This document shows, in pieces, positions 33,425-57,763 of a stretch of 64,000 bases of DNA (the stretch's first letter is position 1; each line of letters opens with the position of its first letter). Origin of the DNA: Haliotis rufescens (lineage: Eukaryota); assembly GCF_023055435.1 (NCBI RefSeq), contig NW_025963857.1, forward strand, positions 16,678,001 through 16,742,000, written 5' to 3'. The notes beneath the pieces were generated by a model that saw only the letters and a list, made by a program, of their open reading frames with translations, ran no database searches and had not been told where the DNA came from. Made by a program: the position numbers and the translations under genes.

Positions 33425-33446
33425 ATGCTCTTCATGGAGCGGGATG
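33425..33446 (+). CDS. Putative first coding exon of the large Ser/Pro/Tyr/Arg-rich gene (MLFMERD)
   Basis: Acceptor ctttccttag| at 33363, ATG at 33425, GC donor G|gcaagt; phase 1 fits the next exon. Confidence 0.4.
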
Positions 33447-34023
33447 GCAAGTGCGGACTCTGAGAATGATTCACCAGATGAAGCTGTGCTAGGCTTTGAA
33501 AAACTACTTTGCAGATACTTAAAGTATTTATGGATTGAGTTAGTCAGTTACCTCTGTTTATCTTTACGCCAGGTACAGCGTCGCCGTCATGATGTTACAG
33601 TTCCTTAGATGCTAGGCTTAGTCTCTGAAAATATTGAATTTTGATAGAAACAAACAACTCCATTTAACCATGAAAAGAAGCCCTGTAAGATGGAAATACT
33701 GAACTTGCTTCATTTATAAGTATAGTTTTACAGTAAGTGCTGGGCGTAAGGGAAAATAATATGATTCGGGGACTGTGACACAGACTATTTTGATGCTTGA
33801 TCATTAGTTTGTCGGACGCTCAGTGCACACTATGATACAAGATTTGTGGAGTAACCTGGCGGTTAAAGTGTTGGCTCGTCACACCAAAGACCGCGTTCGA
33901 ATCCCAACAAAGGTCCAACATGGGAAGTCCATCGTTTGTGTCATCCGCCGTTATATGACTAGAGTAATGCAGGGTAAAACTTCACTCGTTCGCTTATTTG
34001 GCCATGAATTCTAAACCTAACCA

Positions 34024-34183
34024 GGGTGGTGGGGTAGCCTAGTAGTTAAAGCGTCGCTCATCACGCCGAAGACCCGGGTTCGATTCCCCACATGGGTACA
34101 ATGTGTGAAGCCCATTTCTGATGTCCCCCACCGTGATATTGCTGGAATATTGCTAAAAGCGGCGTAAAACAATACTCACCCAC
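34024..34183 (+). mobile_element. SINE family A
   Basis: Near-consensus copy. Confidence 0.9.
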
Positions 34184-34824
34184 TAAACATGTCATCGTGG
34201 AAAGTTCGTTTAATTCAACTCACTTATGCTGCCCTACTAGGAAGAATCACGTGTGTGCAGGACTTTGCCAGTGCATAGATCTACGAGACACAAATACCTG
34301 AGTGATAAGACCATTTGGCGTAACACTAGATCCCTTGGCTTGAAACATGAGACAGTTTAAATTTAGCCGTTTACTCAGTTTGCCATAACTTAAGTTTCAT
34401 TTGTCTACTCGTTGCGCGTAACAACAACAGTTGCAGCAGAATCGCCGTACGCTGAAGAGAGTGGATATATTTATACCCGCTGATTACCTAGACATTGCAT
34501 TTGGGGAATAGTTTGGGACGCGTCGACATTTCACCAACTCTCGTTTCTTCCTAGGGACTATCTAGACATGGTTAACAGCTGCACCCTTTATGGCTCGACA
34601 CACACTCATTGGTATCCCGAACGTCGAGACTGAAATGGTCATGATGTGATTATCGAATGCAACACTGGACGGATATGCTCATCCCTTAGTACCCTACATT
34701 CTTCAGTTTCGTATGTCCGTGTGTGGGCTACACAGATCTTTTTTTTTAAGAAGACATATCTCTGACCGGACACCCCACCTAGTGGCAGATATATATGTCA
34801 TATTGAATATCATGTTCATTTTCA

Positions 34825-35065
34825 GAAGCGATTCAGGGTTAGAATTGTCCGCAGCAACCCATGCTGGTCGTAGAGGCGACCAAATGGATCGGGTTGTTTG
34901 ACTCGGTGCCATGGTTGACATCGTGTCATTGTAGCCGAGAGCGTGGAACTGGACGAAAAGTATCAGTCACTGGATTGTTTGGTCCAGACTCGATTATTAC
35001 ACAGGCCGCCGTCATATTGCTATAATATTGTTGACTGCGGCGATTAACAACAGACAAACAAGCAA
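34825..35065 (+). mobile_element. SINE family B, older subfamily
   Basis: Diverged head with tggtcg/cgacca stem; typical tail. Confidence 0.75.
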
Positions 35066-35677
35066 AACCGAATTTTCCCAAGAAAACACCGAACTTAACA
35101 TCATTAAAATGTAATAAATACTTAATACAGTTCAATATCCTTGAACTCCAAAATTCGTCATAATTCAGCATAATTAAACGATCGAATTCCGGAAAGCAAC
35201 GTTTCCACGAAAATAGTCCAGATTACTAATAGAGAGCAGGGAGTGTTTATGTGTATATGTAAGTCCAGACTATCGAGGTTCAAATGTACACAGTGTCGCG
35301 CGTGCGGTTATTCCACAGAAACAACATGTGGCGTGGCCTTGGAAGTTGCTAGAATACACACAGTAATTCCTTCAAGTTCCGCTTTGCACTTTCAGTCTCT
35401 GATTCACTGATAAGACTATGGTCTATCTGTATGTAATTTTTCTCGGTTTGGGCTGATGCGCTCTTTGCCAGTCTGAGAGGTTAATAATAGCCCCTTGTTA
35501 TTGTGTACACGGAGGTGCTTCTTCAAGTCTTTATATGTACCGTGTTCGTCGCTGAAGGCACAGCCACAGATGTTACATGCTAACCTTGGAGCCCAAAATG
35601 CTGAATAGAAATACATGTCAAGATCCATTAAATCAAGCCACTTTGCCTGCAAACTTTATCTTTATCATTAGTATGTT

Positions 35678-35932
35678 TCTTGTTTAACGCCGCACTTAGC
35701 AATATTCCAGCTATACGACGGCGGTCTTTAAATAATCGAGTTTGGACCAGACATTCCAGGGATTTACATCATTGGCATAGATCCACGCAATTGAGATACG
35801 ATGACATGCATCAACCAAGTCAGCGAGTCTGACCACCCGATCCCTTAGGTCGCCTCTGATGACAAGCCTAGTCGCTTTTTACGGCAAGCACGGGTTGCTG
35901 AAGACCAGTTCTACCCCGAATCTTCACAGGTC
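35678..35932 (-). mobile_element. SINE family B
   Basis: Reverse complement match with a duplicated hairpin module. Confidence 0.88.
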
Positions 35933-37155: not shown

Positions 37156-37878
37156 GATGTGGTTATAGATATCATATTAGTTATATGGGCGGTTAGATGG
37201 ACCATTGGTTCCATGCCCTTAATATGTTAACTGCCTGATGTGGTTATAAATATCATATTAGTTATGTGGGCGGTTAGATAGACCATTGGTTCCATGCCCG
37301 TACCTGCCTGATGTGGTTATAAATATCATATTAGTTATATGGGCGGTTAGATAGACCGTTGGTTCCATGCCCCTCATATGTTAACTGCCTGATGTGATTA
37401 TAAATATCATATTAGTTATATGGTCGGTTAGATGGACCATTGGTTCCATGCCCCTGATATGTTAACTGCCTGATGTGGTTATAAATATCATATTAGTTAT
37501 GTGGGCGGTTAGATGGACCATTGGTTCCATGCCCCTGATATGTTAACTGCCTGATGTGGTTATAAATATCATATTAGTTATATGGGCGGTTAGATGGACC
37601 ATTGGTTCCATGCCCCTGATATGTTAACTACCTGATGTGGTTATAAATATCATATTAGTTATGTGGGCGGTTAGATGGACCATTGGTTCCATGCCCCTGA
37701 TATGTTAACTGCCTGATGTGGTTATAAATATCATATTAGTTATATGGGCGGATAGATGGACCATTAGTTTCATGCCCCTAATATGTTAACTGCCTGATGT
37801 GGTTATAAATATCATATTAGTTATATGGTCGGTTAGATGGACCATTGGTTCCATGCCCCTAATATGTTAACTGCCTGA
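37156..37878. repeat. 81-bp minisatellite, about 9 copies, running into the 3' half of a family-A SINE
   Basis: Unit tgatgtggttataaatatcatattagttatatgggcggttagatggaccattggttccatgcccctgatatgttaactgcc. Confidence 0.95.
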
Positions 37879-38879
37879 ACCCCATTTTTGGTGTCCCCGC
37901 CGTAAATATGCTGGAATGTTACCAAAAACAGGTTCAAACTCTACTCGAAAACTCACTCCCTCACATTCCAACTTCCGCCTGCCACGCACACTCCACAGCT
38001 GTACGACAAGACCTGTGAATAGTTGTACCGAATCTGCTCAGTCAGCAAATGTTGCTGCAGTGCCAGAGATTCCTCTGACATAGTTGCCCTCGCGCAGACC
38101 GTTTACTGCCGTTGCTGATTACGGAAGTGTATATGGTGTTGCTGCAAAGATGTGTTGAGAAAATACAGTTTGTTTGTCACCTTGGCGGCCTTTTCACTGT
38201 TGTAATTATATTTCATAAGAATTTGCAATATTGGGGCGATGGTGGTGATGGAGTTGATGCGATCGGTTGTTTGGGAAGAAATACTATCATATGTTTCATC
38301 AAAAACAAGAAATTGTTCTCCCGACAAAAGTGAAAACAATGTATACTACTCAAAGGAACAAAAGAAGGATGTGTGTTGCAATGCCCACCAGCCATAACCG
38401 ATTGATTGTAGTTATATGAAAAAATAACGAATGTTCCTTAACACCTATGAGTAGTATCGATTGTTCGGTTCATCTTTTCACAAAAGAAAATTGCGTATTT
38501 GGCGAAGTGACCGAAACAGTATTCGGTTTCTAAATATTAAATGGTGGGTCCCCTTTGACTTTGAATATGATGTGCATTAGGTGCACAGTTGTGATGAACA
38601 TTCCAAACGCGTGTGGGCTTGTTAACGATAGAAACCTACCCAGAGGCAGCCAACAAAGAGGAGATAACTGGGAACACATTCTTGGAGGTCGCTGTGTTCC
38701 ATGCATTTGAAACTAAACACTAATTGAATTAAAAGAAACTATTTATTAATACGTTAACCTACTAATTAAAGTCTGATATCACCTACATTAATTGAAAATA
38801 ATCTCATTGCAAAGGTATATCGCATAAAACAGACATCTGTTTTTATGAGTTAATGCTTTAATGTATACAATGTATACAA

Positions 38880-39269
38880 TTACCTGTTCTTGGGTATAAC
38901 ATCTATACTCTAACCCCTGTATTACCTGGGTATACCCGCCTATTATAACCCATGTGTTACCTGTTCCTGGGTATACACGCAAGTACTATAACACCTTTAT
39001 TATCTGTTCCTGGGTGTACCGGCCTACTATAACACCCTTTATTATCTGTTCCTGGGTATACCCGTCTACTATAGCCTATGTATTACCTGTTCCTGGGTAT
39101 ACACGCAGGCACTATAAGCCCTGTATTACCTGGTTCCTGGGTATACACGCAGGCACTTTAACCCCTGTATTACCTGTTCCTGGGTATACACGCAGGCACT
39201 ATAACCCCTGTATTACCTGGTTCCTGGGTATACACGCAGGCGCTAAAACCAATGTATTACCTGTTTCAG
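38880..39269. repeat. About 43-bp minisatellite, about 9 copies, abutting an exon
   Basis: Unit tattacctgttcctgggtatacacgcaggcactataacccctg. Confidence 0.9.
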
Positions 39270-39378
39270 AGCACAAGGGGCCACTCCGTTCTGCGCAGAG
39301 GGACGTTCGGTGCCTACCCTAGACGTGTGTACAGCGACGCCTTTGCCCCTGAGTATATACCACGCAGGCTTGGATACG
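39270..39378 (+). CDS. Exon of the large gene (STRGHSVLRRGTFGAYPRRVYSDAFAPEYIPRRLGY)
   Basis: Acceptor cctgtttcag|, donor G|gtaaat; phase 0 to 1; composition matches the big exon. Confidence 0.7.
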
Positions 39379-40167
39379 GTAAATAAAAAGCGACAAAACC
39401 CTTTCCATAATAACAAGAAATCTCTGCTAAAAACGAAAGTTCACTGTACCACTTCGACTGTAGCAATAGCATCGTTCTGGATCCACGTGTGAGCTACCGA
39501 GAATATAAATTTAAAAAAATCACTTTCGTGTGCCTTCCCTTTGGGACCGACCATTTGGGGTGAGGGGAATTTGGGATTTTGTATGGAGGTTAGATATTTT
39601 TTTAGTTACAGATATATATTTTTTAATCAAGACCATGAGTCTTATTTTTAAATAAGAAAGAAAAATACTTTTTTGTGACTACCAATGTCATTTTTTTTTC
39701 AAAAGCATTTGCAGGACAATTTCATTTTTGGGGAAAAAATAGTAAGTCTTGTCAAGAACGTGTCATCAACAAAGGATACTGATAGATGCATTCGACACAC
39801 AGCAATCAATAAGTCTACTCAGACAGTATCAGTATGAATCCATATTGAACGTGACTTTCAGATTGCGCTATTTAATGGGCAGTCGTGACCTCACATTAAT
39901 CTTTCTCAATATCAAATAATATACCGAACTTCTTTTGTCATAAAAAACAGTTTTTCGGAAAAACATCGGCCGTCATGATGTATGAACTTTGTGCGGAGGA
40001 ATCTTGCGTTATGCAGGGCTTGCAGTGCTGCACTACTTTATTTATTTCTGGGGAATCTTGTAGGTAACGGAATGAGTCGAGTGGAGCTGAATGTTATGTT
40101 TTTTGCAAACAAATTTCAACTGTCATGAAAATGTTTTTGACATCTTAATAAAACAATCTGTATTCAG

Positions 40168-40313
40168 AGAGCACATCAGAGGAGTACGCTCTTGGCAGTG
40201 CCGTCACTAACGCCACATCATATTCTGACGCTTCCCTGTACGACACTTACGACACTGCCAACAGGTCACGAGGGCGGGACCAGACTCTTCTGCAAAACGC
40301 CACAGCAGCCATC
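40168..40313 (+). CDS. Exon of the large gene ((E)STSEEYALG...LLQNATAAI)
   Basis: Acceptor tgtattcag|, donor ATC|gtgagt; phase 1 to 0; open frame. Confidence 0.75.
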
Positions 40314-42134
40314 GTGAGTTACCTCCCTTTATCCGCCATTTTCCTACACTGCCAATTTCAACATTCTTGTCGCCATTGAAAAACGATTTCACATTGATGC
40401 TTTTGGGTTAAGAATGTTTGAACCGAGTTTTGAAGAGACACAAAGCGTGTGGTGCTTACACAGTAGCGAGGCACTTCTTCAACAGCTTCTAGGCTTCATG
40501 TGGACTAGAAATATTACAAGATATTGTTTTACAGTCCATATTATAAAATGTGTACCACCTTTACTTCAATGAAGAATATATTTGAATGGGATTCTAAAGC
40601 TTATGAAACAACGACAAAAATAACGAAAGGAAACAAAAATAGCTAGTATGTCGGTTATAATAATTATCTCATAATTCATTTTATATTCCAAAGTGAATCT
40701 TGAAACTTTGTACTTTGCCTTCAATGTTTATTTGATTATTTAGATCATTGTAATATATGAAATGATTTTGAATCCAGATTTAGTTTTTACAGTTTGTGAT
40801 TTTGTATTGTTCTTATTCACCATGATTTGTGTACAGGGCTGTGCCCGGTTGATGTGTTCATGCCGTGGGTCTTCCCCTTACATACATGAAACTTCTTATC
40901 TGAAAATTAACTTTCATTTTTATCATTTAATCCTCAATGACATCAATCTGGAGTATAGAGGACTCAGGTAATTTCCGTGAACACTACGTGAAGTTATATT
41001 TCGATAGTCAATCAATAACATGTGAGAATGATTTTTAATCATATAGTATCCCAACCAGAAGGAGTGTGCGTGATCCCATGACTCCCCGAATAAACTCCAT
41101 AACATTCCGTTTCAGATACATGCTTTACGTTCCATATTTTTATGAATATTATTGCAGTAATTACAAAAATGCAACTATATATGTAAGTGGTATATCTTTT
41201 TTTTTACATATTTCTCATTTAAAGGTTCTTTATGTTGTGTATGACAAAATATATATATAAGTTAACACAGTCATGTTGTCGTTAGATATATAGTCTATGA
41301 ATATTACAATGTTGTCTGTAGATATTTTGAATGATTGATCTGAAACGAAATTTATAACATGGTGCACAGTCCCTATTCCTTTAGCACATATATTGGTAAT
41401 TCATCATATTCTGGCTTGTCGATATAATAATCTACTGCATGGTCTTTGTGTTTCGATAGTACAATGAAGACGAATAGCGATGACTATTAGAATTTGAGTA
41501 TTTGCAGAAACGGGGTTAAAACGCCATTAATTTAAATCAACAACATCTTTGGTGACCAATATTATTACTGAATGCATTGATGATTTTAAATCTAAAACGT
41601 CAACGCCAAAGAATAATTAGTTTCAATTATTTGCCGAAACGGATTTCATTGGGCGTTAAAGGTCAAATTATATAAATGGATCACTAAAAATCAGTGATGA
41701 CAACAGGTGCTCGCGAAAGCATGTTTTGCCCTACCCAACACCTGCGTTTCTGCAAATCCTTTAGACTTATGCCAGATGATATTCCTCATCTTTAACATCA
41801 TCGACATTATCAATAGGCACTGGCGAACACACATACACACACACGTCATTTGTACCGTCATGTGTTACAAGATCATGCCATTCTGGGCCAAGGTAACTGT
41901 TCCATACAAGTAGCCATATTCCGTCCTATAGTCTTTTTTGTCGCATATCCAATAACCTCATTAGACACTACAACCTACAACCCAATGCTTCTCATGTTTT
42001 ATTTATGTAGATAGTGATTTTCCTTTGATTTGCCCTTAGTCCAACTAGTTCCATCACCCAGACCATACATTCTATATAATTTAGACCAGAGCAAAGTAAG
42101 TTGTATCTAAGGTGTCCCTTCACTATTCATGCAG

Positions 42135-43946
42135 CCCCCGTCGACAAACTCGCCGCTGATGGCCTCGCCTAGCCGGACAGCCAGCGCCCTTCCCGGGAGG
42201 CGTTTTCTATCACGACCTATCACTCGTTCCTTCTCCCCCGACATTGATGACACGCCGGTGTCATCCAGTAAGACAAGTTACTCACTCCCCACCTCACACC
42301 TTCAAGCCAGCGCACCTCCTCGACCAAATGTAACTCCCACCGTCAGTAAATACGCCAGGAACAGTAGTTTAGGCAACACCGCCAGTAGGATAGCCTCTCT
42401 CAAAAGCACTTATGATAGCAGTTCTTCCGGTGTGTTGCCAGACAGTTCATCCACTCGGCTTCTAGGAGGGTACATTCCTCGCACTTTGTACCGTTCTGGA
42501 TCTCCCTTAGGTAGTGGGACGACGACTCCCCTTTATCAATCGCCATATCTAGGCTCGAAGAGGCCTACCTACAAATTAGCATTTGATAGTGGATCTACCA
42601 CTCCCACATACAGACCATCAGCATATACAGAGACCACAAAGCTGCTCGGAGGGTATGTGTCACCCAGATTTGCCTACAGGACAGTCAGTGTGTCGCCATA
42701 TGCTAGTGGCACACAGTCTCCCGTGTACCCGTCCTACAGTTCCCGACCTGGAACACGGCTACTAAGTGGGTACATCCCTTCCAGACGCCTGACATTGTCG
42801 CCATCAGTGTCACCGTATGCTAGCGGCACGCAGACCCCCGTCACATACACAGCTGGGACCCCTCTGACTACATATGACAATTATTATGTGAATGAACCTG
42901 ATTACCCAGAACTGACCACCACGAGACGTCGGCCAAAGGTCTTGGGGACCAAGATACGAGTTGGTAACTATATGGACAGACTTAGAAGAAAGCGGGCAGG
43001 GCAAAGGGGATCATCAAAGTACTGGCCTTACTATGACGTAGACGACATCACGTCAGAGGCAGGGGATGTCCTCAGTGAGACGGAATCTATACCAGATTAC
43101 TATGGTACAGCCAATGCTACCCACTGGGACGATGAAGAAGCTGCTGGGGGAAGGTACATAAGTTACCTGGATAATGGGGATGACAGTTACATGGACGAGC
43201 CTGATGAGTATGTACCCTTCAAACCGAGAAGAAGGCTTGAATCTCCCGGAGTTCTAGAACTAGCCCCCTATGAGAACACCCCTCCTGCACCAGAGCTCCC
43301 ACTTGTATCCACACTCCCATATCTTCCCAAAATCAGCTCAGATATTGGTTCAAAGGGAAGTGATTTGTATTTGAATTCCATTGTGTCATCATCCGCTGCT
43401 CGTGCAAGGACCGCTTTCAAAAACAATGGCTTTGGCAACTATGATAATGCTAGCTTAGTGCTAAGCGTGGAAGGAGATGTGGTGTCCCCCAATACCGGCG
43501 GCCGATATGGATTTAAATACTACCACCCACCAGTCCCACTTGTAGGCAGAGGATTGGGAACAAGCGTACTTGGCCTTCCCTCGCCAAGTTCCTCGATAGT
43601 GGACAGTTTCTTTGGGACCTATGTGAACAAGCTGCGAGATATTCGTGCCGATTTCCGCAGCAGACTTGATAGTAGGGTTTCACCTAGAACGGTACCATCT
43701 GCATACAGAGAGATTGGAACTTACACTCCTAGCAAGCCGACAGATAACTTCCTCCCGTACACATCCTTCAGAAAACGCCTTCAGGGGGGCACAACACAAC
43801 GTGTTGACGTCATTGAGCTTCCTGTCAGCGAGCGTGTGTTGCCCTCGGAGACGCTGTCTCTCACTTTACCTGAAACGGCATCTGCGAATGACAAGGACAA
43901 ACGTGACAGTTATAAGCTTACTGTTCTTGATAAGATCAAAATCAAG
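42135..43946 (+). CDS. Giant 1812-nt exon: Ser/Pro/Tyr/Arg-rich, likely disordered region of an uncharacterised protein
   Basis: Lies within the 627-aa ORF; acceptor cactattcatgcag|, donor AAG|gtaatg; phase 0-0. Confidence 0.9.
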
Positions 43947-44500
43947 GTAATGTGTTCTGCCCGTAGTCTAGCCAAGCCTATGGACATGCTCTGTCTCCCC
44001 TTCTGCTCCTAGTGAATGGCTGGCTGATGCTTCACCCAATGTAGTGGCTATTCCGGTTCTTTCTCTTACTTGCTAGTTCCTGTGTATGACTCTGGCTGCT
44101 AAGTGGATGCTAACGGTTTTAACCTACTCTCCTAGATAGAGGAGAGCTGCGCGCATTACATCTCCCCTCAGACAGGTGTGTTGCTAACTAGGAATAAACC
44201 AACTAACTAGGCTTACATTCTTTCCTCCCTACTCACAAGCACTGACATCAGTAGAAAGGCTGGTCTGGCACTAAATGACGGTGGGTTGCCTGAATGCTAA
44301 CTAGATACCGGTTAAGAACATGAAGGAACACCAATCAATCTTGATGAACACGGTTTCATCAAAAAACAAATTCTAAAAAACAACCAGGTCCAAACTCCCA
44401 AGCTTCACTAGGTTTGTAGATTATGTAGACCATCTTTAATTTGCAGCTCTTGTGTTTTTTCCACTCCTTCCATGATCTTTGTGCCCTCCCTTCCTCGCAG

Positions 44501-44950
44501 GTATCCAGTGAGGCATACGCTACACCCAAGTCTTCTGTCGCAGCGAGAAGGGTTGCACGAAAAACCAACCAACAAACTGCCAAACCACAAGCCAAACCTA
44601 TCCTATACCGGAATGAGGTAGCTAGCTATCCTTACGCATCAGTTCCCGCCTACTATACGCCTAGACCTAGAGTCGTTCTAATTCAAGTCGCAGGTCCGGG
44701 GAGTGGGTATTACGTGCTACCCGTTGGTCCTCGGGTGCGCGCCCCAGAGTACGTTGCTGACAGAGAGCCACGCTCTTCGAATGTTGTTAAAGAGTATGGG
44801 CGACAACCTGTCGTGGTTCGGGAGCGAACAGTGGCTTCCTCTGTTTTCACATATTATGCCACACCAAAACGCGCGAAAGTTCCTCCTCGCTATCGACTCC
44901 GCTCACTGTGGCCTGCATATGCCACTTATAGAAAACCAAGAAGAGCAAAG
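44501..44950 (+). CDS. 450-nt cassette exon (basic, Tyr/Pro/Arg/Val-rich)
   Basis: Acceptor ccctcccttcctcgcag|, donor AAG|gtgacg; phase 0-0; lies within the 180-aa ORF. Confidence 0.75.
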
Positions 44951-45849
44951 GTGACGTGTAGTTACTGTTTGGCTGTTCCTTAGTTCAGTTCGTTCGCTGT
45001 TGGGTTATATTTGGCAAGCATATTTGAGTTCATGCTATCATTGGTTCCCGTAGTATCCTCGGAACGTCAAAACCCTATTCAAAATTTGTGCACAAGAGAA
45101 CCCTTGCTCTTTTTACACGGCTTCCCGTAGGATCATAACTGCTTCCGCTTTTGTCACAATAATGGTTCAGCTTCCGCCCAATAACAAATATTCGCATATG
45201 TTGGCATTACTTACATCATGTTGAAGCTTGCATTCTTCAAGGGTTAAACTATTGAACAGCCAGTGGCATATGCTGCTCTTTCTCTACTAATGCCACGTGG
45301 CATGCGACAATTGGCTAAACTGTTACTGTCCTTCATGTTCTTAATATTACAGCCAGACTTGGATTCGTTCATGCTAATGCTTGATCCTTTTTACAGTTCA
45401 TTGTTTTCAGCGTAGTAATCAATTCACCCAGCATGCCATTTTCAAGATGGCCGCCACCTTTGGTACTTACAGCATTGTTGGCATGTGGAGCGGACATGAG
45501 GAGACCGCATGGACTATAAGTTACAAGTCAGGTGACCCTTCAAGGGTGGCTATCTGACTTCTCTGACAGACCGGTCGTTGATCCTAAAACTCACATTTAA
45601 TTTTAGATCTGGCGTTTTACAGTTCCACTAAACATCCAACATCTAAACGTGTCAACGAGAGAAGTCTGCATGTTTCCCATTAAGGCACCTACTTGTAGCA
45701 TGTCAGTTCGTGTGACAGCGTTAGTCGTTGTGTATTTAACACCATTAGCTTGGGTATGCCTCACCCGCCTGTGTCACTAACATACATCAGCCAGCCTCTT
45801 TGTCAGAATGCTTCTGTATGAACGTACTGTTTCTTGCACTTGTTTTCAG

Positions 45850-45861
45850 TGTCTTGATAAG
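45850..45861 (+). CDS. Candidate 12-nt microexon (CLDK)
   Basis: tttcttgcacttgttttcag|tgtcttgataag|gtaata; branch-like cactaac at 45775-45781; phase 0-0. Confidence 0.5.
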
Positions 45862-46452
45862 GTAATACGTCTGTATAACAACTTTGGTATATTTAAAGTG
45901 TACATCAGCAGTAATGAAGAACTGAAGTATTTGATTATAATGATTCAATCTTAAAACGTATTTATAGCATTAATATTTTAATTTTGTTCCGTTATTTTGT
46001 TGATTAATACATCATTTTTGTAAGATTTTAAAAGAAAAATGTACCATTTAACCAATTTTGTACACCTTTATTTTTGTTCACCGGGTGAGGCATTTCCTTG
46101 TAGACACTGGGTCACAGTAATACGAAGAAAACTTGCCATCAGCAGTCTCGATGTCTCACTACATCCATAACTGTACATATCACTAGCTTTGGTTGTGATA
46201 AACATAGTGTCATATCCGAAATCATTGATGGTGCCCCAAACACAAATTTATGAATATTAAAGTGATTCTTCTGGGAGTTCAAAATAACATAAGATTTATA
46301 TATTAATCGCCCAATCTGCAGTTACTCCTTTGTCAACTCATTCAACGGATATAAGGTACACGTTAAGAACTTGGTGAAACTAACCTGCTTTAACCATTAC
46401 ATTAAGGATGTTTTGATCTCGTTTGGATATTGAAACTTTCATGGCCTTAAAG

Positions 46453-46620
46453 TGAGTGAGTGAGGGAGTATGGTTTTACGCCGCTTTTAGCAATATTCCA
46501 GCAACATCACGGCGGGGGACACCAGAAATGGGCTTCACACATTGTACCCATGTCGGGAATCGAACCCGGGTCTTCAGCGTGACGAGCGAACGCTTTAACC
46601 ACTAGGCTACCCGACCGCCC
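46453..46620 (-). mobile_element. Young intronic SINE family A
   Basis: 8-bp TSD ccttaaag at 46445-46452 and 46621-46628. Confidence 0.93.
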
Positions 46621-46942
46621 CCTTAAAGCACATTCTACATGTACATAGTGACAATCATTCCACGTATGCCACTCAACGTTTGTTGGGGATAGTCTACTAC
46701 CCTAAGTTCCACCAATCTGATAATGCATATGTTCCATGTATGCTACTCAACGTTTGATAGGGATAGTCTACTATTCTTAGACACCAAACTGATTAGGTAA
46801 ACGGTATGACATATATCCGTATCACAAGTTGAGTAGTATATATGTCCTCATTCCTACGACTGCGCCTTGGTGTCAAGTTTTCAACACTGCTGTGGCCCAC
46901 CTTATCCTGCCTTGAAATTTCATTCATTTGCTTTTCATACAG

Positions 46943-47044
46943 GCGGCAATTGTTGCAAGCAAAGTTGAAGTTGAGCCCAGGAGGAAAAGGCCACGTTCTA
47001 AGTTCGCCGCAGACAAATTGCGAACCACTCGTGCAAGAGGCGAG
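46943..47044 (+). CDS. Exon (AAIVASKVEVEPRRKRPRSKFAADKLRTTRARGE)
   Basis: Acceptor cttttcatacag|, donor GAG|gtaaaa; phase 0-0. Confidence 0.8.
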
Positions 47045-48826
47045 GTAAAAACCCGTCCATTTGTAAGTGTGACCTTGGACGCCGGCGACCTTGGAGCCGA
47101 AAGGTCACGTGATGCATGGTCTTTGACACGATTGGTTGAAGGAACTGCCAGTAGATAATAGACGTTTCTGTTCTTATTTAATATGAATATTGAAAGTAGT
47201 AAATAAGAATAGAAATGGCGTGTATTTTGGTTATCGTTACGTGAATTGTTTTAGTCAGCGATGTAAAGAGCAAGTAAAATATACCCAGTTTATTATATAA
47301 GAGAACATATGGTTGTTCTGTGAAAACCCTCCAGTCGAAACGTGCATGTACCTAAAGATTTCTGCTTTGACAATTGGCTTATTCACTCCTTGATGTGACA
47401 CTGCACAGCACAATCAAAACCAAAGATTAGTTCATGAAAAAAATGTAGTTCCTTGCGAAGTATAAAGCCTTAACTTTTGACTGGCTAACACAAACCATGC
47501 CCTCTGATCTTCCAACACAGGTTTCACATATAGTCAAGGACGTAATTGACTTCAATCAATGAATAACAAAAATAATTATTCCCATTTTGAGGAAAATTTT
47601 ACAAATGGAGATCAGTTCATGTAGGAATAATGATGTATGTTCCATATAATATATTATATATCCATATAGTTTTGTTAGAAGGCTTTCTGTAATTATTTGG
47701 TTTATGGATACGCCGACCCACATTTCACACATGGGGTATGAAACTACCGCCTGTTTTCTTCCCACACAGCATGTTGCCTCGTTTACGTAATGAAAACAGT
47801 GTCAAAGTTGGCCAATTGGGGGGAGAGGTAACCCTTTCACTCGACCTTTCCTTGTTTTCATCTTTATGGAGATCACTTATTAAGAATATCTTCTTGAAAA
47901 TATTTGGGGTGAAATGTCTGTAAACCAAGAATTAGAGCAAGGCTTTGCACTCGTCTAGAAGTAGTAATTTGGCACGTGTGTTGCAACGTGAACCTTAATG
48001 TTCAAATATCTTGATTTCAACAGTTACCTCAATTAGAACTGAGGGAAAGTCCAAACAAACTGGATCAAAGTTTAGATCTCCCTCAATTGAGACGGTCGTT
48101 GTTTCTGCAGGTATGTTGAAACAAATGTAAAGCATGTCCCATATATTACTTCCATAGTTACCGTTCAGTTCGTGACACAATCACCTCGTGAATAGCATCC
48201 CCAGTCCACTGCATCTCCCACCACGTCCCAATTAATTACCTTCAAAATAGATTACCGAGAACCCAGTGTGTCAATAACAAGCTGTGTACGAAACATTCTA
48301 ATCAATGAAGGCCACATTCAATAACACCTCTGCAGTGGTCTCTTCTCTCTGTCTCACGAATCATGTCTTTAAGAACAAGCACTCAACAAGCACTGAACAA
48401 GCCAAAGATTAGATGACATTTAAAATGGTTTTGAGATCATTATGGTCACTGTTGGGTTTTCAGGAGTAAACCTTTAAAATAAAAGCGACAAAACCCTTTC
48501 CATAACCAAAAGAATATATGCTAAAAGCAGAGCTCATTTACGATTCCGACGATATGAAACTATGACTGTAAGAAACGGGATATAAGAATGAATAAATTCG
48601 GAAAATATAACAAACAAGTTATGTTTTTATGTTCTATTTGTTTATGTGCTTATTAGTGGTCATGACATTCATTTCTTTCACATCTTCTTCCTCGTTATCC
48701 AATCAACATATGCAATCCTACAGGCAGTTCCTTCTCAATCATTATGTCTGAATTTGCACTGTCATGTGACAAGATACCTTCACCTCGCCGAGTCAGCACA
48801 TACGCACCGACTGTATTATGTTTCAG

Positions 48827-48880
48827 GAAAGTGTGTACCCCCAGGTGACCTCTGGACTCTCCGCCTCTAGACCACCACTG
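48827..48880 (+). CDS. 54-nt exon (ESVYPQVTSGLSASRPPL)
   Basis: Acceptor tgtttcag|, donor CTG|gtatgt; phase 0-0. Confidence 0.65.
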
Positions 48881-50359
48881 GTATGTCCCTTTCAATGTGT
48901 GTTTATCCATTCATGACGCATATGTCAATATCATGTTACCATTTAAAAAGATTTCTTTGAAAAGTAATTGCAAATTTGAAGGGTTTTTTTTAAAGAGCAC
49001 GAGTGAGTAAATATTAGTTTAAGCCGTATCAGAACTATTGCACTACTCGCGGCAATTTTTAAAGAAAGAAGTGTTCAATGAATTTTAACTTTGGTGATGA
49101 TGATGTTAGAAAATTTACGAGTGCTTCGGGTGGAACCGATTTTGCACTTGCATTTATAACGATCTGTACTCATATTTATATGGAATCATATTAATGAAGA
49201 TCTGAAATCATATGCCTGTACTTTCTCATGGAAATCTTATGTAACTCTGTATCTAAATCAAGAGTAACATATTGTATTATTTTCACTTTGAATAGTATTA
49301 CCCTTGATGTGTTATTTTTCACATCCTTGTGACTATCGCGGTGTTAAAGCATACTTATAACACTTGTCTTACAGATATATACATGATATAATACATACAT
49401 CCTGAAATGTTAGCTTTAATTTCTATAACAAAAATTCTATAACAAGCAAAATACACATTTTACTCAATTAAATACACACAATGGAACAACATTTTAGTGC
49501 CTTATCATGACATAAACCCTCTAGTCATCACTTGTTTTTCTGTGCCTATACGTACAGACGTTTGTGTCTAATGCCAAGCTGCGACTCAATAGTATTAGCT
49601 GGTGTTGTATACTTGAAATGGCGTGACTTTTCAGAGATACGATGACCTATCAGGGGCGGTGAGGAAATAGCGTATGATCTGGGCTTGATGTGGACACTAG
49701 TATGACTATAGTGGCATATTTGACATCTATGAGGGACCGAGCATTTCATATTCTGGGCTGGGATTTTTGTGTGAGACAGAATGTTCTTAAAATTCAACTC
49801 TTCAAAACATACAATGTTTCGTCTAATTGAAAGAACCAAACACTTGTTTGGACAAAAAATAATATTTTCGACAATTTTCGAGATATATTCCTAGAATGTC
49901 AAATGTTCCCCCCTTACATGACCTCAGTGGAAACTTTGTGCTAGTGGGTTCGGATTTTACCTTATCCCTGCAGTTTTATTGGTACAATCTTGAACTCAGT
50001 CGAGCATCCACTATCATGTACACGTGTCAAATCTTGCCTCTCCTCCCCATGTAACCAACAATAGCCGTTTGTTCCTCGTGTCCTGCTAGACAGCCTGAGA
50101 TAGGTCTCCAAAGACACTTTGAACCTTAACTCCAAATTGTATACGTAACCAAACATTTATCTGATTCGCACGACCACGAGTTACAGCATAGTATTGTGAT
50201 GAGCCCGAGTTACAAATAACAAAGATTTACGCGTGGTTTCCCTGTTCAATCACAAGTGCCATGGGATTGTGATCTACCCTGCATTCGTGGAAGTTTCAAG
50301 GCTAATATGGGTGAACGTTGCCCTGAGTTTGGATCTTGATCAGGCTATGTCTTTTTCAG

Positions 50360-50377
50360 CGCACCCCGAGGGCAATG
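50360..50377 (+). CDS. Candidate 18-nt microexon (RTPRAM)
   Basis: Acceptor gtctttttcag|, donor ATG|gtaggt; phase 0-0. Confidence 0.55.
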
Positions 50378-51681
50378 GTAGGTATTGGCGTTCAGAACTA
50401 TAATTACCTTTAAGCACAAAATCAGCATCTTGGTTCTACGTTTGCACTCAAAATGCACGGTCTTCGCGTATCCTGCGAGGGCTATCAGCAAGGGGACAGT
50501 ACAACGCCAAGTGGAGAATCTTTAAGACTGTGGAATTTAATATTTGACTTCCCAAAGAACCGATATCGGCACCAGGATCTGTGGGCTTAATTATCTGTGG
50601 TTGTGCCTAGACTCAACATGAATATATCTGAGGGAATAAAGGATCTACTTCAAAGATATTTTATGCCAAAGAGCATTGTTATAAGGCTGATTTACTGGTC
50701 ATCCAACTTTAATTTAATTCCATATATTAATTTTCCACAGCAATATTTTGAGAATTTTAATGACAATTATCGTGTATGGTAATATTTATATTTTTCAATG
50801 ATAATCATGCCACACCCAATGAACAAGGAAGAGAACAGAAATATATCAGATCCGCTGAGGCAATAATGGTAACAAGATGTCGACCTTACCACGTGACATG
50901 GATGACGACAATCGTGCATTTTGAGTGTGCGCCTGGCGTTGGTATTTCTGAGCAGCACTGTCCACCCGGACATTGTCCTTTCCTGTTCTACTCATCTTGT
51001 TTATTTACTCATGTATGTCGCTTAGCAACGCTCTTTCTACAGCGCTTCTTTGTTGTTGAAAATTGCATTAAGGTGAGGTAACAAAATAAACATATATAAG
51101 GACTATTTGAAACAAATACTTCTGTATTGACATCCTTAAAAAAAACGTGTACCGTACGAACTGTGTAATATTCTCTTTCAGCACGTGCTCTACGTGTCTG
51201 GCGTCATCTTTTCTATTATCACTCGTGTGATACATAACATTATTTTACTTTTTCCTATCTGGAACTCTTGTTTGCAAATAACTAATACAAACAACACATT
51301 ACATACATTATGTTCCCCATATTTGTTATGATGCATTTTAGAAATACTGATTTGGGTCCCCAGGCAAATTATGTTATATTTGGGAGATTGGTTAGTTCGG
51401 GTTATTTCAATATCAAAGAAAACAAATTACGTTGTTCCAATCGCTTTGCACTCCATCTCTTAAAACTCATTCATATAAGATAACTTTGTGAAGATCTCTC
51501 TGAATGTATCAAAATTGGGTGAAACCCTTCCCCCAAAATAAAACAAAACCTTCACACGTTGGCAAACCATAAAAAGTGAACACGTCACACGAATACACCA
51601 CTAACACGCACGTGCTAAGCGAGATACATACCCGGATATCGAGTTACCCGTATGTACTTACCGTCTTCCTCCTCCCACCAG

Positions 51682-51756
51682 CCCCTCCCATCAGACAGGC
51701 GGGCTATTCGAGATGTGGAGGGATTCACCAAACCTAGGAACCTTCTGTCGTGGCAG
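51682..51756 (+). CDS. Exon (PLPSDRRAIRDVEGFTKPRNLLSWQ)
   Basis: Acceptor tcttcctcctcccaccag|, donor CAG|gtgcgt; phase 0-0. Confidence 0.8.
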
Positions 51757-52712
51757 GTGCGTCTTAAGGTGTTGATGATGCCAATTCTTTGGTTCGGAGT
51801 GTGCATGGGATCATCTCCACGCAACCCTGGGAGGATGGGGCTAGCATAAGGACAGAGAGGGTTGACATTGGCATTTATTACGTTGATAAGTGATTTGGGG
51901 GCAATAATGTTACTAAGTTCTGGACGTATTTCGTTATCAGTTAAAATCACATTTTCCTGAAAATTCGAAGTCCAGATTTGTTCATAATGAAATAATATTT
52001 GTTGTCACTTCAAAAAAATTGATACGATTGACTAATTTCATGATTTTGACATGCTACTTCATGTTCCGAGCTCAACCCAAACTGAAAATATGCGAAACGT
52101 ACGACCAACTTAACACGGCTCCATTCTATCAGGTTTGTGTGGATAGTTTGAAAATATCAAATCACGCCTCAATGACATCCTAATCATTATAAATAAAATC
52201 TGTTCCAAATATTGTTATCACGGCACTTTGGTCCTTTCAGGACAAAAATGCACACTTCTACTCGAGCGCTGTCTGGTACAGCGTAAAGCATTGATTTACA
52301 CAGGCGTATGATTTATATCACCAAGTCATATCTTCTATCTGCATCAAAGCCTTCCAACTTATTATTTGCTCATACAGTGTAGGTTGTTTCTTTGTACAAC
52401 AACAACAAAACACATAACAAGTAACATAGCTTCAGCGCTCATCTAATACTTCTATCTGCGCTCAGCATATAACAATAGCAGCTTGTTTTGCTTAAGCTTT
52501 ACTCATCAATTATTACTGTTATCTTTCTGTTTCAGCAAATCACACTTTAATTTCACAATGCTTGGCTACATGTTCATTATATTATGGCCTTGAAAATTAT
52601 TGTTATGTTTTACATTAATATGTTTTTTCATTGAACTTTCTGAATTTGCATGAATATTGTCTATCTTCTGTTGCATGTATGACAGAACACACTGAAGTAT
52701 AAAGAGCAATTA

Positions 52713-52970
52713 CAGTCGAGCATCGGTATCTGGAACCCCGTTATCTGGATTGCACCGATATGTCAAATCTAAACTCCGGTCACGGCCGTCGCACTATAAA
52801 TTCGAGATAAAAATACATTGCTCTATCCCAAAACTTGGACTTTACTATACATTTTTTACTTTACTATAGAATTTCAGAAACAATTTTATCTGTAAATTTT
52901 CTAATTCAATTTGAATGCGTATTCAAAGGTCTAAGTACAGCACGGAAGAAGGTCTTATCGAGTTCAACGG
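52713..52970. mobile_element. Degenerate pogo/Tigger-like MITE
   Basis: ta|cagtcgagcatcggtatctggaac start; similar decayed elements lie near 14875-15130, 55800-55955 and 63580-63730. Confidence 0.5.
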
Positions 52971-53929
52971 AAATCAATCTGTTCTAATTCTACACTGTAC
53001 TGATTTGAGAGACTGAAATCTATGATACGTCTGCCCCCATAACCGAAGCCCAAAGGAGACAAATAGAGCGAATGGTATAATGTAGCAATGCCAAATACAC
53101 GTTGATACTATATTTATACTATACACCAGGTTGGGTGGTGGAGCAGTCACGCGGTTAACACGTTCGTCGAAGACACAGGTTCGATTTCTCAATAAGAAAC
53201 AATGTGTACACCCATTTTTGGTGCCATGATACTGCTGCATATTGCTTAAAGCGCGCTAAAAACCACGTTCACGCATTTGTGCAAGTCGGCGATGCATAGA
53301 TCATATTGTTCTCTCCATGAAGTTAATTCCGTTGCCCCAGCTTACAGATGACAAATGGGACTCCTTCCAATGGTATTGGTAAGATGACATGACACCTCCT
53401 GCTTCCCGGACATTGTACAGTACTAACATAGATCAAATACTGCCCAGTGTGGAGTGTGTAGTCTGTCCGTACATCCCCGAGTCTGTGTACGAGCTTCTGT
53501 GTACGAACATATAATAGAAGGGTCGACCAGATTTGTTTGTTGAGGTTCAAAAAATTATTTTCAATAACTTTGGTATTGCGAATTCTGTGTCCTCTTCCCA
53601 CCGACAATCTATAGCACGGTTCTTGCATGCAATGTAGCTAGCTTAGAGGTTTTCTCAATTTGTTTATACTGACACGTGTATTCCAGCTATTGACTTTCTT
53701 TGAAAGTGTCACTGTGATATCAATGTTTACCTTAGTACAAAGTAACTTGATACAAAGGTTTGTACTATAATGACTGAAACATGAGAGCATAACGTGTAGA
53801 CTTCATCAGATAAGGTCAGTCTTGATATACATACAAGATTATTAACGGATTACGAAATGCTTGAATCATTGTAAAATTAAATGTGTTCAAAGTCACATTG
53901 TTGGATGGTCGTGATTTATTAACTCTTGC

Positions 53930-54194
53930 ACCCGTGAAGATCCGGGGTGGAATAGGTCTTCAGCAACCCATATGCATGTCGTAAAAGGCGACTTTGCTTG
54001 TCGTAAGAGACGACTAACGGGGTCGGGTGGACAGGCTCGCTGACTTGGTTGATGCATGTCATCGTATCCCAATTTAGTGGATCGATGCTATTGATGTCAA
54101 TCACTGGATTGTCTGGTATAGACTCGATTATTTACAGACCGCCGTCATATTTGGAATTTTGCTGAGTGCGGCGTTAAACAACAAACAATCAAAC
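53930..54194 (+). mobile_element. Intronic SINE family B
   Basis: Near-consensus full-length copy. Confidence 0.9.
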
Positions 54195-54281
54195 AGTGGA
54201 CTCTGCTTTTCCCTGAGATTATAATAATGGAAAGGATTTTGTCGCCACAATTCCTTATTAAGTAACCAATAATCTCCACAG

Positions 54282-54487
54282 TACCGTCTGGAGTCCCGTA
54301 TGGACCCCGCTGACCTTATCTACAAACCAGGATCGTTCTCGCGCATGCGAGAGCAGGTACGTGACGCCCATGACAAGATGGACCGCCACCGTCAACTGCT
54401 TGACCGCTACTTGACCGACAGTGGCCCAACCCGAGACATACAGGGAAGCGTTCAGCGTAAGATGGAGGAGCTGGAGCGTCGTGACCC
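54282..54487 (+). CDS. Exon encoding a helical/coiled-coil segment (YRLESRMDPADLIYKPGSFSRMREQVRDAHDKMDRHRQLLDRYL...MEELERRD)
   Basis: Acceptor atctccacag|, donor CC|gtatgt; phase 0 to 2; GC-rich coding-like composition. Confidence 0.85.
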
Positions 54488-55691
54488 GTATGTACCCATT
54501 ACGTCACTTCCTGTTTACGTTCTGACAAAAGTTACCTCCCTTGCAGTTTTTTTTCATGTTAAATTTAGATACAATCTGTAATATTCGACATGAATCCATT
54601 GGTGTATTTTCCCATTGAAGACTGAACTGAATATCAGCGTATATGTATACTTGTATTATAATTGTTTATGCTCAAGGGAGGTAACTAAGATACATTCATG
54701 TTTAGCCAAACGAGTTTTGTATTCAGATTTTGAACATAAAACTGATTTAAATGTTAAAATGTAAAATCACCGCTCACGTTAATGTTGAGAACAGAGTATA
54801 CTATTTTACTATCACGAGATAAGATACCGAAATTCGTTTGTATAAACAGTGTGCATGCTCTTTTCTGGTTTTACATTGACCTTTCGCCTGTGTGGTGCAT
54901 GCTTTACCTATAATGCTTGTAAAATTTTCTTATTTATAATTTGGAATTCATATATATTAGATCACTATTGTAAATTCAGTTAAATGTTTTTATCTTGCAT
55001 GCTTATATGGAAAAAAATATTTCAAATAAAATCAAGTTTTGAGAATTTCTGAAAGTCTTTGCCTTAGTAAGTAGCTTGTAGTCTCTTACTTTTTTCCGTT
55101 CAAAGAATATTTTTCACCTCCTCTCTATACCTCTCGCACCAGTCTCCACACTTTTTGCAAGTCTATACATTTAGTTTTCACTTGTTTCAGTTCAAGGCTA
55201 GTAATATCGTTATTGTTTGGTTAACTTTTATTCCTAACCCACACTAGAAAACGTTCTTCACGTTCACATTACTAACACAAGGATTCTACTTTAACGATGT
55301 TAAAGCTGTACTAAATGTTGATTAATCGTAATTTGTTATAAGATTAAACTTTGCTTTACTTATCGTTTACATTTTCAAGTATTTCATGTTTCGCCTAGCA
55401 GACTTAAACGCGCTTATCAATATGTTTGCAACTCACCTTGAACTAGAACAAACACGTAAGCGCAGCCGTTAAGCACAAGTGTTTTTGTGACTTAACCGGT
55501 TCTTAGTTTCCCTTTGCTGTGTGCTTAACCTATGCTTATGTTGAGAGCTTCCGAAACGTTTCATGAAGAAACGTTGCTTTTGCGGAAAGCAAGCCTAACT
55601 CTCGGCGGCATACAGTGTTGAGGTCATATGGCAATGGTGCATCGTGCTTTCAGAATGTTTAAATTTTTTTCTGACTTTTAAGTTCTTACAG

Positions 55692-55752
55692 GGGCCCGGT
55701 GAGTGTCAGCAGCGATCGCCTGTCGGTATACAAACCCCCTCCCCGTGTGGTC
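55692..55752 (+). CDS. Exon ((P)GPVSVSSDRLSVYKPPPRVV)
   Basis: Acceptor ttcttacag|, donor GTC|gtaagt; phase 2 to 0 fits both neighbours. Confidence 0.8.
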
Positions 55753-57652
55753 GTAAGTTTTGCTTCTAGTTCAACTAACCTGGCACACTAAACACTCAAT
55801 ATTGTGAAACCTCGTTATTCCGTGCGGGAGCGTTCCCTCTGAAATCATCAGGATTTTCACATTAACGAATCGTTGATACGTAGCAAGACACTTAGTTTTA
55901 TACACATCAGCGTTCACTGCAGTAACAGGGTCCGGACTAGCGAGGTCTCACTGTATCACAATATGCTTCATTGAAATATGTAAGTGAAAGGTTACGTTAA
56001 TGATCTACACGTCCGATCAACCAAGATTTAGATTTTCTTTCATCCCGTATTACGAATTTTGGAATATTTTGAGTACGTTTTTTTAAATACCTTTCATAGT
56101 TATTTTGTCTAGATTGTCATACTTATTTATTCACAGTTTTCAAATTGGTAAACAAATGTTTAATATATAATTTAGACACATTATACATTTATATGGATTA
56201 TTTGCATTGGGAAGAGGTAAGGACTGCATGTGAATCTATAACTGTGTGTGTGGATTAACAATTGATAGCGACATCCTTTCACTTAATCGTAAGTTTTTCA
56301 AAGATTTATTATGCTATTAATTCTAAGAACAAATCGCAGATCACATATGTTTATGGTGCACACAACCGAACACAATCCGAATACTTATTTCGATATATAC
56401 CCTTATTTTTATTCCCACTATCAGTTTGACCATTTCCAATATCCATAGTAGACGCTTCCCCTTAATAAACAATTCTTGTCATGGAAATAGCGTTAATATT
56501 CTTCCAAATAAAACAGGAGTCTAAAGGAATATTGGAACTTTGTCGAAATATTTTGTCCATCGTAGCCAAGGAAAGAAAATAAAGACAACATTCTTTTCAA
56601 CTCATAGAAATCAAAGGGGTGGATGCTTTCGACGTAAAACCACCTCCTAGTCGTGATATCGGGGTGGGGTACCCAAGTGGTAATAACAGGGTCACGCAGG
56701 AGCCCCGGGTTCGATTCCCAACATGACATCAACAAATCCCATTCTTGATATTCCGGGAACAAAAACGATTGTCAAACTTGGGGGATATTTTTCATTTTAC
56801 ATTTTCACTGATGCCCATAAAATAATATATATTTATTTGGAAGGGGTTCCGAGTTAAACTGGAGGGATAGATCAGTGTCCATTGTAAATCCAGCCTATCG
56901 TTATGTATGCCGGATAACACCTATCTTGACGACCATGACAAGTATTGTATGATATACACACTATCCTGTTTGCAGTTGGGCGTGGCACTTTAGTTTACAC
57001 TATATATATATATATATATTGACTGTTGTGATATAAACAATATAAATATGTATCGTTTGAAGAGTTTTAGCGCCTAGGGTAGTGCACATATATACATTAG
57101 CATTTGTGCTTTCCACCAACTTTTAAATATTCAACGTTACAAGAAGTAAACTTCAATATGTACATTTATCAAAACGTTGTTTGGAATCTATCAAACTTAT
57201 TGCATGCTGTGGTTTCATGTCAATTTTGTTAAATGCTTTAAATATTCTACTGTTTCCTAACGAGTTCATCACATAGTACTGTTACAGTAACATTCTTTAT
57301 TGTTTTAACCGTTGTTGCTTCTTGAGTTCAGCCCAGTTTTTTTGCACTAACGTCAGCTTTCTGCAATTAAATCTACGAGTATCAAACAAATCAGGGAACT
57401 GAACTGGGGCACAACAAGGGGTTACAAAAACTGCCGTCATCCACTGTCATCTCAAGGACTTTCCTCATATTTCCTTAAAGCCTTTACAACTTTCCACCAG
57501 CGGTGTGATTTTGTTTTTGTAACATATTCTTTACAAATATGCATGGGTTCCATAAACGTCCTTGACATTGACAGTTGATTTCCGAGTTTCTGGAACACGT
57601 TATGACGTCATCAAAAGGATATGACGTCACATATTGTGCTATACCTTGACAG

Positions 57653-57763
57653 AGCCAATACGGTATGCCCCCAAAACAGCCCGTCTCCGAACTGAGGAGG
57701 AGATTGAGGCGCACAGTGTGTAGGAGCAGAGGCGAGCCCAACTATTACAGAGACCGGGAGTAA
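57653..57763 (+). CDS. Terminal coding exon (SQYGMPPKQPVSELRRRLRRTVCRSRGEPNYYRDRE*)
   Basis: Acceptor ataccttgacag|, phase 0, TAA at 57761-57763. Confidence 0.8.
   Translation, partial: SQYGMPPKQPVSELRRRLRRTVCRSRGEPNYYRDRE

What the first reader, a model, noticed from the sequence alone, without database searches (positions are those of the whole stretch)
33425..57763. Unannotated-type gene built from a run of phase-0 cassette exons, 12 nt to 1812 nt
Hand splicing gives a continuous frame of about 1,070 aa from 12 exons, most invisible in the ORF track. Every exon from 42135 to 51756 is phase 0-0 (1812, 450, 102, 54, 18, 75 nt, plus candidates of 36, 12 and 30 nt). Any subset keeps frame, giving isoforms from about 300 to about 1,100 aa that share the C-terminus KPRNLLSWQ|YRLESR...MDRHRQLLDRYL...SELRRRLRRTVCRSRGEPNYY. 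Inference: a length-tunable disordered protein. The Tyr/Pro/Ser/Arg composition recalls invertebrate thick-filament accessory proteins (myofilin, flightin, miniparamyosin N-terminus), so it may be an undescribed molluscan muscle filament protein.
Basis: partly seen in the sequence, partly recalled or inferred. Interest (0 to 1): 0.75.

Follow-up and report, generated by a model that had tools for sequence, protein, structure and literature searches.

The report
Unnamed splice-tuned mollusc muscle protein
This abalone gene is spliced from in-frame cassette exons, including a giant exon kept across molluscs, into short and long forms of a basic, predicted mostly unfolded protein of no named family, whose snail and slug counterparts are plentiful in muscle-rich tissue and which likely sits on the contractile filaments.

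Summary
The gene is real but already annotated: Haliotis rufescens LOC124137947, 'uncharacterized', isoforms numbered to at least X27. All eight coding exons from 42135 to 51756 are phase 0-0. Spliced contigs from four studies skip the 1812-nt exon, implying a main form of about 320-340 aa, pI above 10. The family spans gastropods, Mytilus and Octopus, with weaker relatives including a tapeworm protein; the giant exon sits at the same place across molluscs. No Pfam, PDB or fold match. Short forms are abundant in slug mantle and snail ampulla proteomes and unlisted in a snail haemocyte proteome. The Rbfox motif is the most strand-biased intronic hexamer. Myofilin is the nearest language-model neighbour (0.85, lead only), but its profile does not match. 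Best reading: an undescribed myofilament accessory protein working like myofilin or flightin; filament binding is inferred, not shown.

The parts
17112..17213 (+). alternative first coding exon 1a (34 aa, ends phase 0)
   Evidence: start of 14 of 15 Haliotis isoforms mapped
18255..18293 (+). alternative first coding exon 1b (13 aa)
   Evidence: sequence, open frame; matching N-termini in H. rubra X8, Gigantopelta X4, Patella, Pomacea, Octopus
22442..22486 (+). alternative first coding exon 1c (15 aa)
   Evidence: RefSeq isoform X7
39270..39378 (+). exon 2 (109 nt, phase 0-1)
40168..40313 (+). exon 3 (146 nt, phase 1-0), conserved N-terminal helix
42135..43946 (+). giant cassette exon (1812 nt, 604 aa, Ser/Pro/Thr/Tyr/Arg-rich, phase 0-0) with a conserved helix-hairpin-helix block
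   Evidence: 12 of 12 RefSeq isoforms seen; skipped by joint 40313>44501 in 4 of 4 runs; conserved columns; model
44501..44950 (+). cassette exon with two donors: 117 nt (ends 44617) or 450 nt (ends 44950), both phase 0-0
   Evidence: joints in 3 of 4 and 2 of 4 runs; in 0 of 12 RefSeq isoforms seen; short form matched in Pomacea, Patella, Arion, Octopus
46943..47044 (+). 102-nt exon, basic helix, phase 0-0
48024..48110 (+).
   Evidence: 9 of 12 isoforms; skipped by joint 47044>48827
48827..48880 (+). 54-nt exon, phase 0-0
49635..49658 (+).
   Evidence: 8 of 12 isoforms
50360..50377 (+). 18-nt microexon
   Evidence: 9 of 12 isoforms
51682..51756 (+). 75-nt cassette exon
   Evidence: 9 of 12 isoforms; joints in 2 and 3 of 4 runs
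54282..54487 (+). 206-nt exon, central conserved helix, the family's best-kept motif
   Evidence: 100% identity to RefSeq; near-invariant columns
55683..55752 (+). frame-restoring exon with two acceptors and two donors (7, 16, 61 or 70 nt)
   Evidence: all four forms among isoforms mapped; 7-nt form in a contig of run X8; frame breaks without it
57653..57763 (+). main last coding exon with the conserved C-terminal basic helix
59064..59075 (+). alternative last exon (3 residues and stop) that removes the C-terminal helix
   Evidence: 5 of 12 isoforms; located
44951..57652 (+). introns with sense-strand excess of TGCATG (Rbfox motif)
   Evidence: 13 sense, 1 antisense; first of 452 hexamers ranked

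Best explanation
The gene makes, by in-frame exon choice, short and long forms of a strongly basic protein that is predicted to be separate helices joined by unfolded linkers, and this protein likely binds along the myosin-paramyosin filaments of mollusc muscle as a structural accessory in the manner of insect myofilin or flightin. Shown: exon phases, exon skipping, conservation of three short motifs and of the giant exon across molluscs, translation of short forms in slug and snail tissue that contains muscle. Inferred: the three conserved helices (exon 3, the 206-nt exon, the last exon) fold on binding an acidic coiled-coil rod; phase-0 cassettes, probably under Rbfox-type control, add or drop binding blocks and phosphorylation sites to suit the fibre type; the giant exon gives a rarer long form with an extra docking module.
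For: Arion mantle ('muscle and skin'; top proteins paramyosin, myosin, actin): the 247-aa form has 321 spectral matches and lies in 11 2-DE spots, and two more family forms have unique peptides; in the one part read of 21 of that table only 1 of 94 other rows exceeds 321. Pomacea ampulla (holds muscle cells): isoforms X11 and X10 found in 2 of 3 and 3 of 3 samples, emPAI 1.1-1.3 and 0.43-0.57, the latter beside myosin heavy chain 1.62-1.73 and paramyosin 2.09. The Biomphalaria orthologue's id is not among 1,221 haemocyte proteins listed with LOC names. pI 10.1-10.5 for short forms; isolated helices, pTM 0.26, like myofilin, of which only about 20% is ordered (PMC9820631 passages). Myofilin clusters are the top three named neighbours by features for the short form (0.85, 0.83, 0.80). 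TGCATG bias.
Against: No localisation, binding or pure-muscle data. Both positive tissues are mixed; tissues of the laid runs are unknown. In the ampulla data myosin heavy chain rises about 30-fold and paramyosin about 10-fold between conditions while this protein falls, tracking calponin and myophilin instead, which is not what a tightly co-extracted thick-filament protein should do, though extraction may differ. Atlas scores are under 0.9, reached by shuffled proteins a third of the time at 0.8, share 155 of 256 features (below the usual 170), and only 5 of ten named hits agree. No myofilin profile match. Rbfox acts in neurons as well as muscle (recalled). Spectral counts are inflated by peptides shared among isoforms.
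Confidence: 0.45

Rival explanations
1. A muscle protein of the thin filament, dense body or attachment plaque: a basic, helix-and-linker scaffold that binds actin, tropomyosin or alpha-actinin, with troponin-T-like microexon tuning.
For: Same proteome evidence; in the ampulla it varies with calponin and myophilin rather than myosin or paramyosin; basic pI suits actin binding (inference).
Against: No calponin, WH2, PDZ, LIM or troponin profile match; best PDB sequence hit, Spire WH2 region, is E 0.26.
Confidence: 0.25
2. A neural or general cytoskeletal scaffold whose giant exon acts like the giant exons of ankyrin or tau (recalled), present in muscle-rich samples through nerves or connective cells.
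For: Giant exon plus microexons and Rbfox motifs are also neural hallmarks (recalled); the ampulla list includes neuropeptides.
Against: Abundance among the top of a mantle proteome is high for a nerve-only protein; not listed in haemocytes, so not a housekeeping protein.
Confidence: 0.17
3. A skin, ciliary or sperm structural protein (microtubule-inner-protein or SPATA6 style), abundant in mantle through the epithelium.
For: Mantle sample includes skin; SPATA6 cluster appears at 0.75-0.80 in the Atlas; four of ten listed Foldseek rows plus one more are doublet-microtubule chains.
Against: Those rows have E 4-9; no SPATA6 profile match; found in the internal ampulla too.
Confidence: 0.1

Closest known systems
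Myofilin (Pfam PF15929; insect thick-filament protein)
   Same: Small to mid-size, mostly disordered, short conserved blocks, several isoforms (PMC9820631 and PMC11509062 passages); nearest named neighbour by language-model features.
   Different: No profile match; no conserved N-terminal LKG domain in the alignments; conserved motifs are N-proximal, central and C-terminal; a 604-aa giant exon; known members are molluscan or unnamed, not arthropod.
Flightin
   Same: Basic-looking phosphoprotein style accessory of invertebrate thick filaments; many 2-DE spots here are compatible with phosphorylation.
   Different: No WYR-type profile match in Pfam scans; flightin is about 20 kDa.
Miniparamyosin and catchin/myorod (recalled; catchin cited in PMC5963113)
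   Same: Invertebrate thick-filament proteins with a unique non-helical head made by alternative exon use.
   Different: They carry a long myosin or paramyosin coiled-coil rod from the same gene; this gene has none.
Troponin T cassette microexons; titin PEVK and ankyrin giant exons (recalled)
   Same: Runs of symmetric exons or one giant exon that tune length and charge by tissue.
   Different: No sequence or fold relation found.

Membership tests
Myofilin | match to Pfam PF15929 | tested here: not met
   0 of 6, 0 of 13 (E up to 10), 0 of 60 (E up to 0.1; 60 of the 144 hits) and 0 of 6 family proteins
Myofilin | conserved N-terminal LKG domain of about 35 residues (PMC9820631) | tested here: not met
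   no such conserved column set in alignments A1-A3; N-termini come from three different exons. A direct profile-profile test was not possible: no tool gave myofilin sequences
Myofilin | similar features by protein language model | tested here: inconclusive
   0.85/0.83/0.80 for the short form, 0.75 for the C-terminal part; all under 0.9
Myofilin / flightin (works like) | located among myosin tails of the thick filament, about one per myosin | not testable with these tools
   only whole-tissue proteomes seen
Flightin | WYR domain | tested here: not met
   no Pfam family at threshold in any scan; no PDB sequence match
Miniparamyosin / catchin | myosin-tail coiled-coil rod encoded by the paramyosin or myosin gene | tested here: not met
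   no Myosin_tail match; longest predicted helix about 50 residues
SPATA6 | Pfam PF14909 domain | tested here: not met
any solved fold | significant structural match | tested here: inconclusive
   low-confidence models; Foldseek none at E 0.001; VIA best Z 5.6, generic single helices

The most novel reading that the evidence does not exclude
This is the founding member of an overlooked, abundant spiralian myofilament protein family, the mollusc and flatworm counterpart (possibly a deep homologue) of myofilin, in which a giant-exon switch kept since the snail-bivalve-cephalopod split helps set thick-filament architecture in different fibre types such as striated, oblique and catch muscle.
Probability: 0.2. 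Interest if true: 0.78.

Novelty: new variant of a known kind. Interest (0 to 1): 0.52.

Why it matters
Molluscan muscles have unusually varied thick filaments and catch, and their known parts list is short (myosin, paramyosin, twitchin, catchin; recalled, and PMC5963113 passages). An abundant, unnamed, conserved protein with fibre-tunable isoforms would be a missing component that can be tested at once: antibodies or peptides from the constant exons, isoform-specific PCR for the giant exon, and unassigned density in molluscan filament maps. It also corrects the annotation: the form best supported by contigs (giant exon out, 117-nt exon in) is not among the 12 H. rufescens RefSeq isoforms I could see.

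Tried and rejected
No whole genome held. No run was on record as RNA; spliced joints show RNA in the four laid. Contig depth is a poor level measure, so the 7- to 28-fold gap between the skipping joint and giant-exon contigs is a hint only; in X1 and X8 the giant-exon contig runs unspliced to 44530 at the depth of nearby introns, so it may be precursor. Pfam: nothing at threshold; three weak rows among 60 (DUF3810, CDI, cwf18) rejected. PDB sequence: 2, 3 and 0 rows at E up to 10, none significant. Fold searches gave nothing. The UniRef name 'Enkurin domain-containing' on the Mesocestoides hit has no Pfam support. QKI/How, MBNL, CELF, PTB and Nova motifs showed no convincing enrichment over 15 regions by 8 motifs, a few at p 0.015-0.05; MEF2/CArG/TEAD-like sites near the first exons are at chance level. 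Gene ids or short motifs in main texts: 0 papers. Supplements without a hit: PMC12328594, PMC9712504 (one file unreadable and 'paramyosin' absent too, so uninformative), PMC7024357 unreadable. Earlier scan findings: none. A counted cross-species table of which cassette each homologue carries was not made; that claim rests on reading. No complex prediction was sent (no partner sequence at hand; filaments suit it poorly).
Full report
What is there. The window is red abalone DNA: the exon at 54282 is 100% identical to RefSeq 'uncharacterized protein LOC124137947' of Haliotis rufescens, with orthologues in H. asinina, H. rubra and Gigantopelta aegis. The cluster has 42 members, 15 were listed (12 H. 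rufescens, 855-971 aa, numbered up to X27; 3 H. cracherodii). Mapping these 15 on the window gives the exon map in 'parts'. The gene starts at 17112 or 22442, with a third first exon at 18255 seen in relatives, not at 33425: that ATG exon has a single donor in phase 2 and exon 2 begins in phase 0.

Phases and skipping. Eight exons from 42135 to 51756 are phase 0-0. Among the 12 H. rufescens isoforms the 87, 24, 18 and 75-nt exons are present in 9, 8, 9 and 9; the 1812, 102 and 54-nt exons in 12; the 450/117 exon in 0. Contigs of four runs from four studies, laid on 38100-58050, show GT..AG joints: 40313>44501, skipping the giant exon, in 4 of 4; an inner donor at 44617 in 3 of 4 and the 450-nt donor in 2 of 4; 47044>48827 in 4 of 4; 48880>51682 in 2 of 4; 51756>54282 in 3 of 4; and the 7-nt microexon in X8 (15 joints shown, 340 not). 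The skipping contigs have depth 2425, 845, 177 and 87 against 85, 45, 26 and 9 for giant-exon contigs; the tool warns that contig depth is a poor level measure. In X9 and X11 the giant-exon contig stops at the donor with 30 further letters; in X1 and X8 it reads on into the intron. Chaining the strongest joints (connectivity inferred) gives 321-342 aa, 37-39 kDa, pI 10.1-10.4; the 450-nt form 432 aa; the theoretical range is 172-1,125 aa. After the 206-nt exon a 7-, 16-, 61- or 70-nt exon restores the frame, and an alternative last exon at 59064 drops the C-terminal helix in 5 of 12 isoforms.

Family. A search for shorter relatives gave 13 proteins, from Pomacea, Patella, Arion, Candidula and Octopus among others. 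A profile found 144 proteins at E 0.001, 74 at 1e-10 and 32 at 1e-30 among 1.84 billion. Of 10 looked up, two carried a species: Mytilus and, weakly (E 9e-8), the tapeworm Mesocestoides; most distant hits are unnamed, so the range beyond molluscs is a lead. Three motifs persist: a helix in exon 3, a central helix in the 206-nt exon and a C-terminal basic helix; in 50 aligned proteins five columns of the last two are at least 90% conserved. The giant exon is inserted at the same point and ends at the same motif in 21 aligned long forms, named ones from Haliotis, Gigantopelta, Patella, Littorina, Pomacea, Biomphalaria, Physella and Babylonia, and unnamed ones that share the Mytilus N-terminus or resemble the Octopus protein; five columns inside its residues 565-590 are invariant. 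By reading, short forms of Pomacea, Patella, Arion, Octopus and Mytilus carry the small exon in its place, Patella X7 and Babylonia X3 an extended version like the 450-nt form, and P0070 and P0082 carry giant and small together, so the two are not strictly exclusive. I did not make a counted table of this.

Structure. AlphaFold2 gives the short form isolated helices, pTM 0.26, and the long form pLDDT under 50 for 638 of 928 residues, with a tentative helix-hairpin-helix at 527-632 in the giant exon. Pfam, PDB sequence and fold searches found nothing significant. The Atlas puts three myofilin clusters first among named neighbours of the short form, at 0.85, 0.83 and 0.80, with SPATA6 at 0.80: a lead below the tool's own threshold.

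Where it is made. In the slug mantle proteome (PMC4795696; passages, supplement hits, and part 17 of 21 of table S4 read) three proteins verified here as family members are identified; the 247-aa form has 321 matches and 11 gel spots, and seven more rows hit the same run of Aplysia isoforms (not verified by sequence) with 20-470 matches; 1 of the 94 other rows in that part exceeds 321. The authors describe the mantle as muscle and skin and do not discuss these entries in the passages seen. In the Pomacea ampulla proteome (PMC8533556; passages, section 3.2, part 1 of table S1 and hits) isoform X11 is at emPAI 1.3, 1.1, 0 in controls and X10 at 0.57, 0.43, 0.43 in treated snails; myosin heavy chain goes from about 0.05 to 1.7 and paramyosin from 0.2 to 2.1 over the same contrast, so the protein does not track them. 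The Biomphalaria orthologue id is not in a 1,221-protein haemocyte list that uses such ids (PMC6281880, supplement search only). In introns 44951-57652, with exons and two repeat copies masked, TGCATG (Rbfox site, recalled) occurs 13 times in sense and once in antisense, the most biased of 452 hexamers; outside the gene it is 9 to 9.

How it most likely works. Shown: symmetric cassettes, regulated-looking skipping, translation of several short forms, deep conservation of motifs and of the giant exon. Inferred: a basic, fold-on-binding accessory of muscle filaments, most likely the thick filament, using three constant helices to grip acidic coiled-coil rods while cassettes add or remove binding blocks. 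I put about 0.7 on a muscle myofilament role of some kind, 0.45 on the thick filament. It works like myofilin or flightin on this reading, but is not a member by any sequence test run; myofilin's defining N-terminal domain (PMC9820631 passages) is not seen, and its own function is undefined (PMC11509062 passages).

Novelty. The gene model is public and machine-annotated; no paper in the library names any of 13 gene or protein ids or five short motifs in its main text (one search found no abalone proteomics paper using such ids). Subscription papers and most supplements, including those of preprints, were not searched and may hold tissue data. Verdict: real, partly mis-drawn, an undescribed conserved family with a striking splice design and a plausible but unproven muscle-filament role; interest 0.52.

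Noticed in passing
window 47770-47827: AG/GT-bounded 58-nt stretch with an ATG at its second base, in frame with the downstream phase-0 exons; could be an internal start for a very short isoform, as Octopus has 133-163-aa forms with their own N-terminus. No isoform or listed joint supports it.
   Followed up: partly
window 45850-45861: 12-nt AG/GT-bounded candidate microexon, phase 0-0; in 0 of 12 RefSeq isoforms and skipped by the listed joints.
   Followed up: partly
window 38944-39265: 43-bp tandem repeat (7.5 copies) running up to the acceptor of exon 2, with decoy AG sites in several copies.
   Followed up: no
window 43947-44500 and other introns to 57774: Long unspliced contigs cover introns in X1 and X8 (for example 42135-44530, 48851-51567, 54459-57774); intron retention, precursor RNA or DNA. 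Retention after the giant exon would stop the frame at 44012.
   Followed up: partly
window 62308-62664: 118-aa open frame with coiled-coil look downstream of the gene; only a sub-threshold Pfam row.
   Followed up: partly
window 28499-29417, 37156-37878, 13190-13735, 6387-7263: Minisatellites of 23, 81, 52 and about 96/335 bp period; many short interspersed repeat copies, two of which (46450-46620, 53930-54195) draw most laid contigs.
   Followed up: no
P0083 and P0217; P0099, P0103, P0104, P0106, P0112, P0113, P0121: Babylonia has two genes of the family; several unnamed short relatives keep the first and last motifs but lack the central helix, suggesting paralogues.
   Followed up: no
P0007 versus P0008 (Gigantopelta): Isoform X7 lacks about 220 residues from the middle of the giant-exon region: splicing within the giant exon, or a split giant exon in that species.
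   Followed up: no
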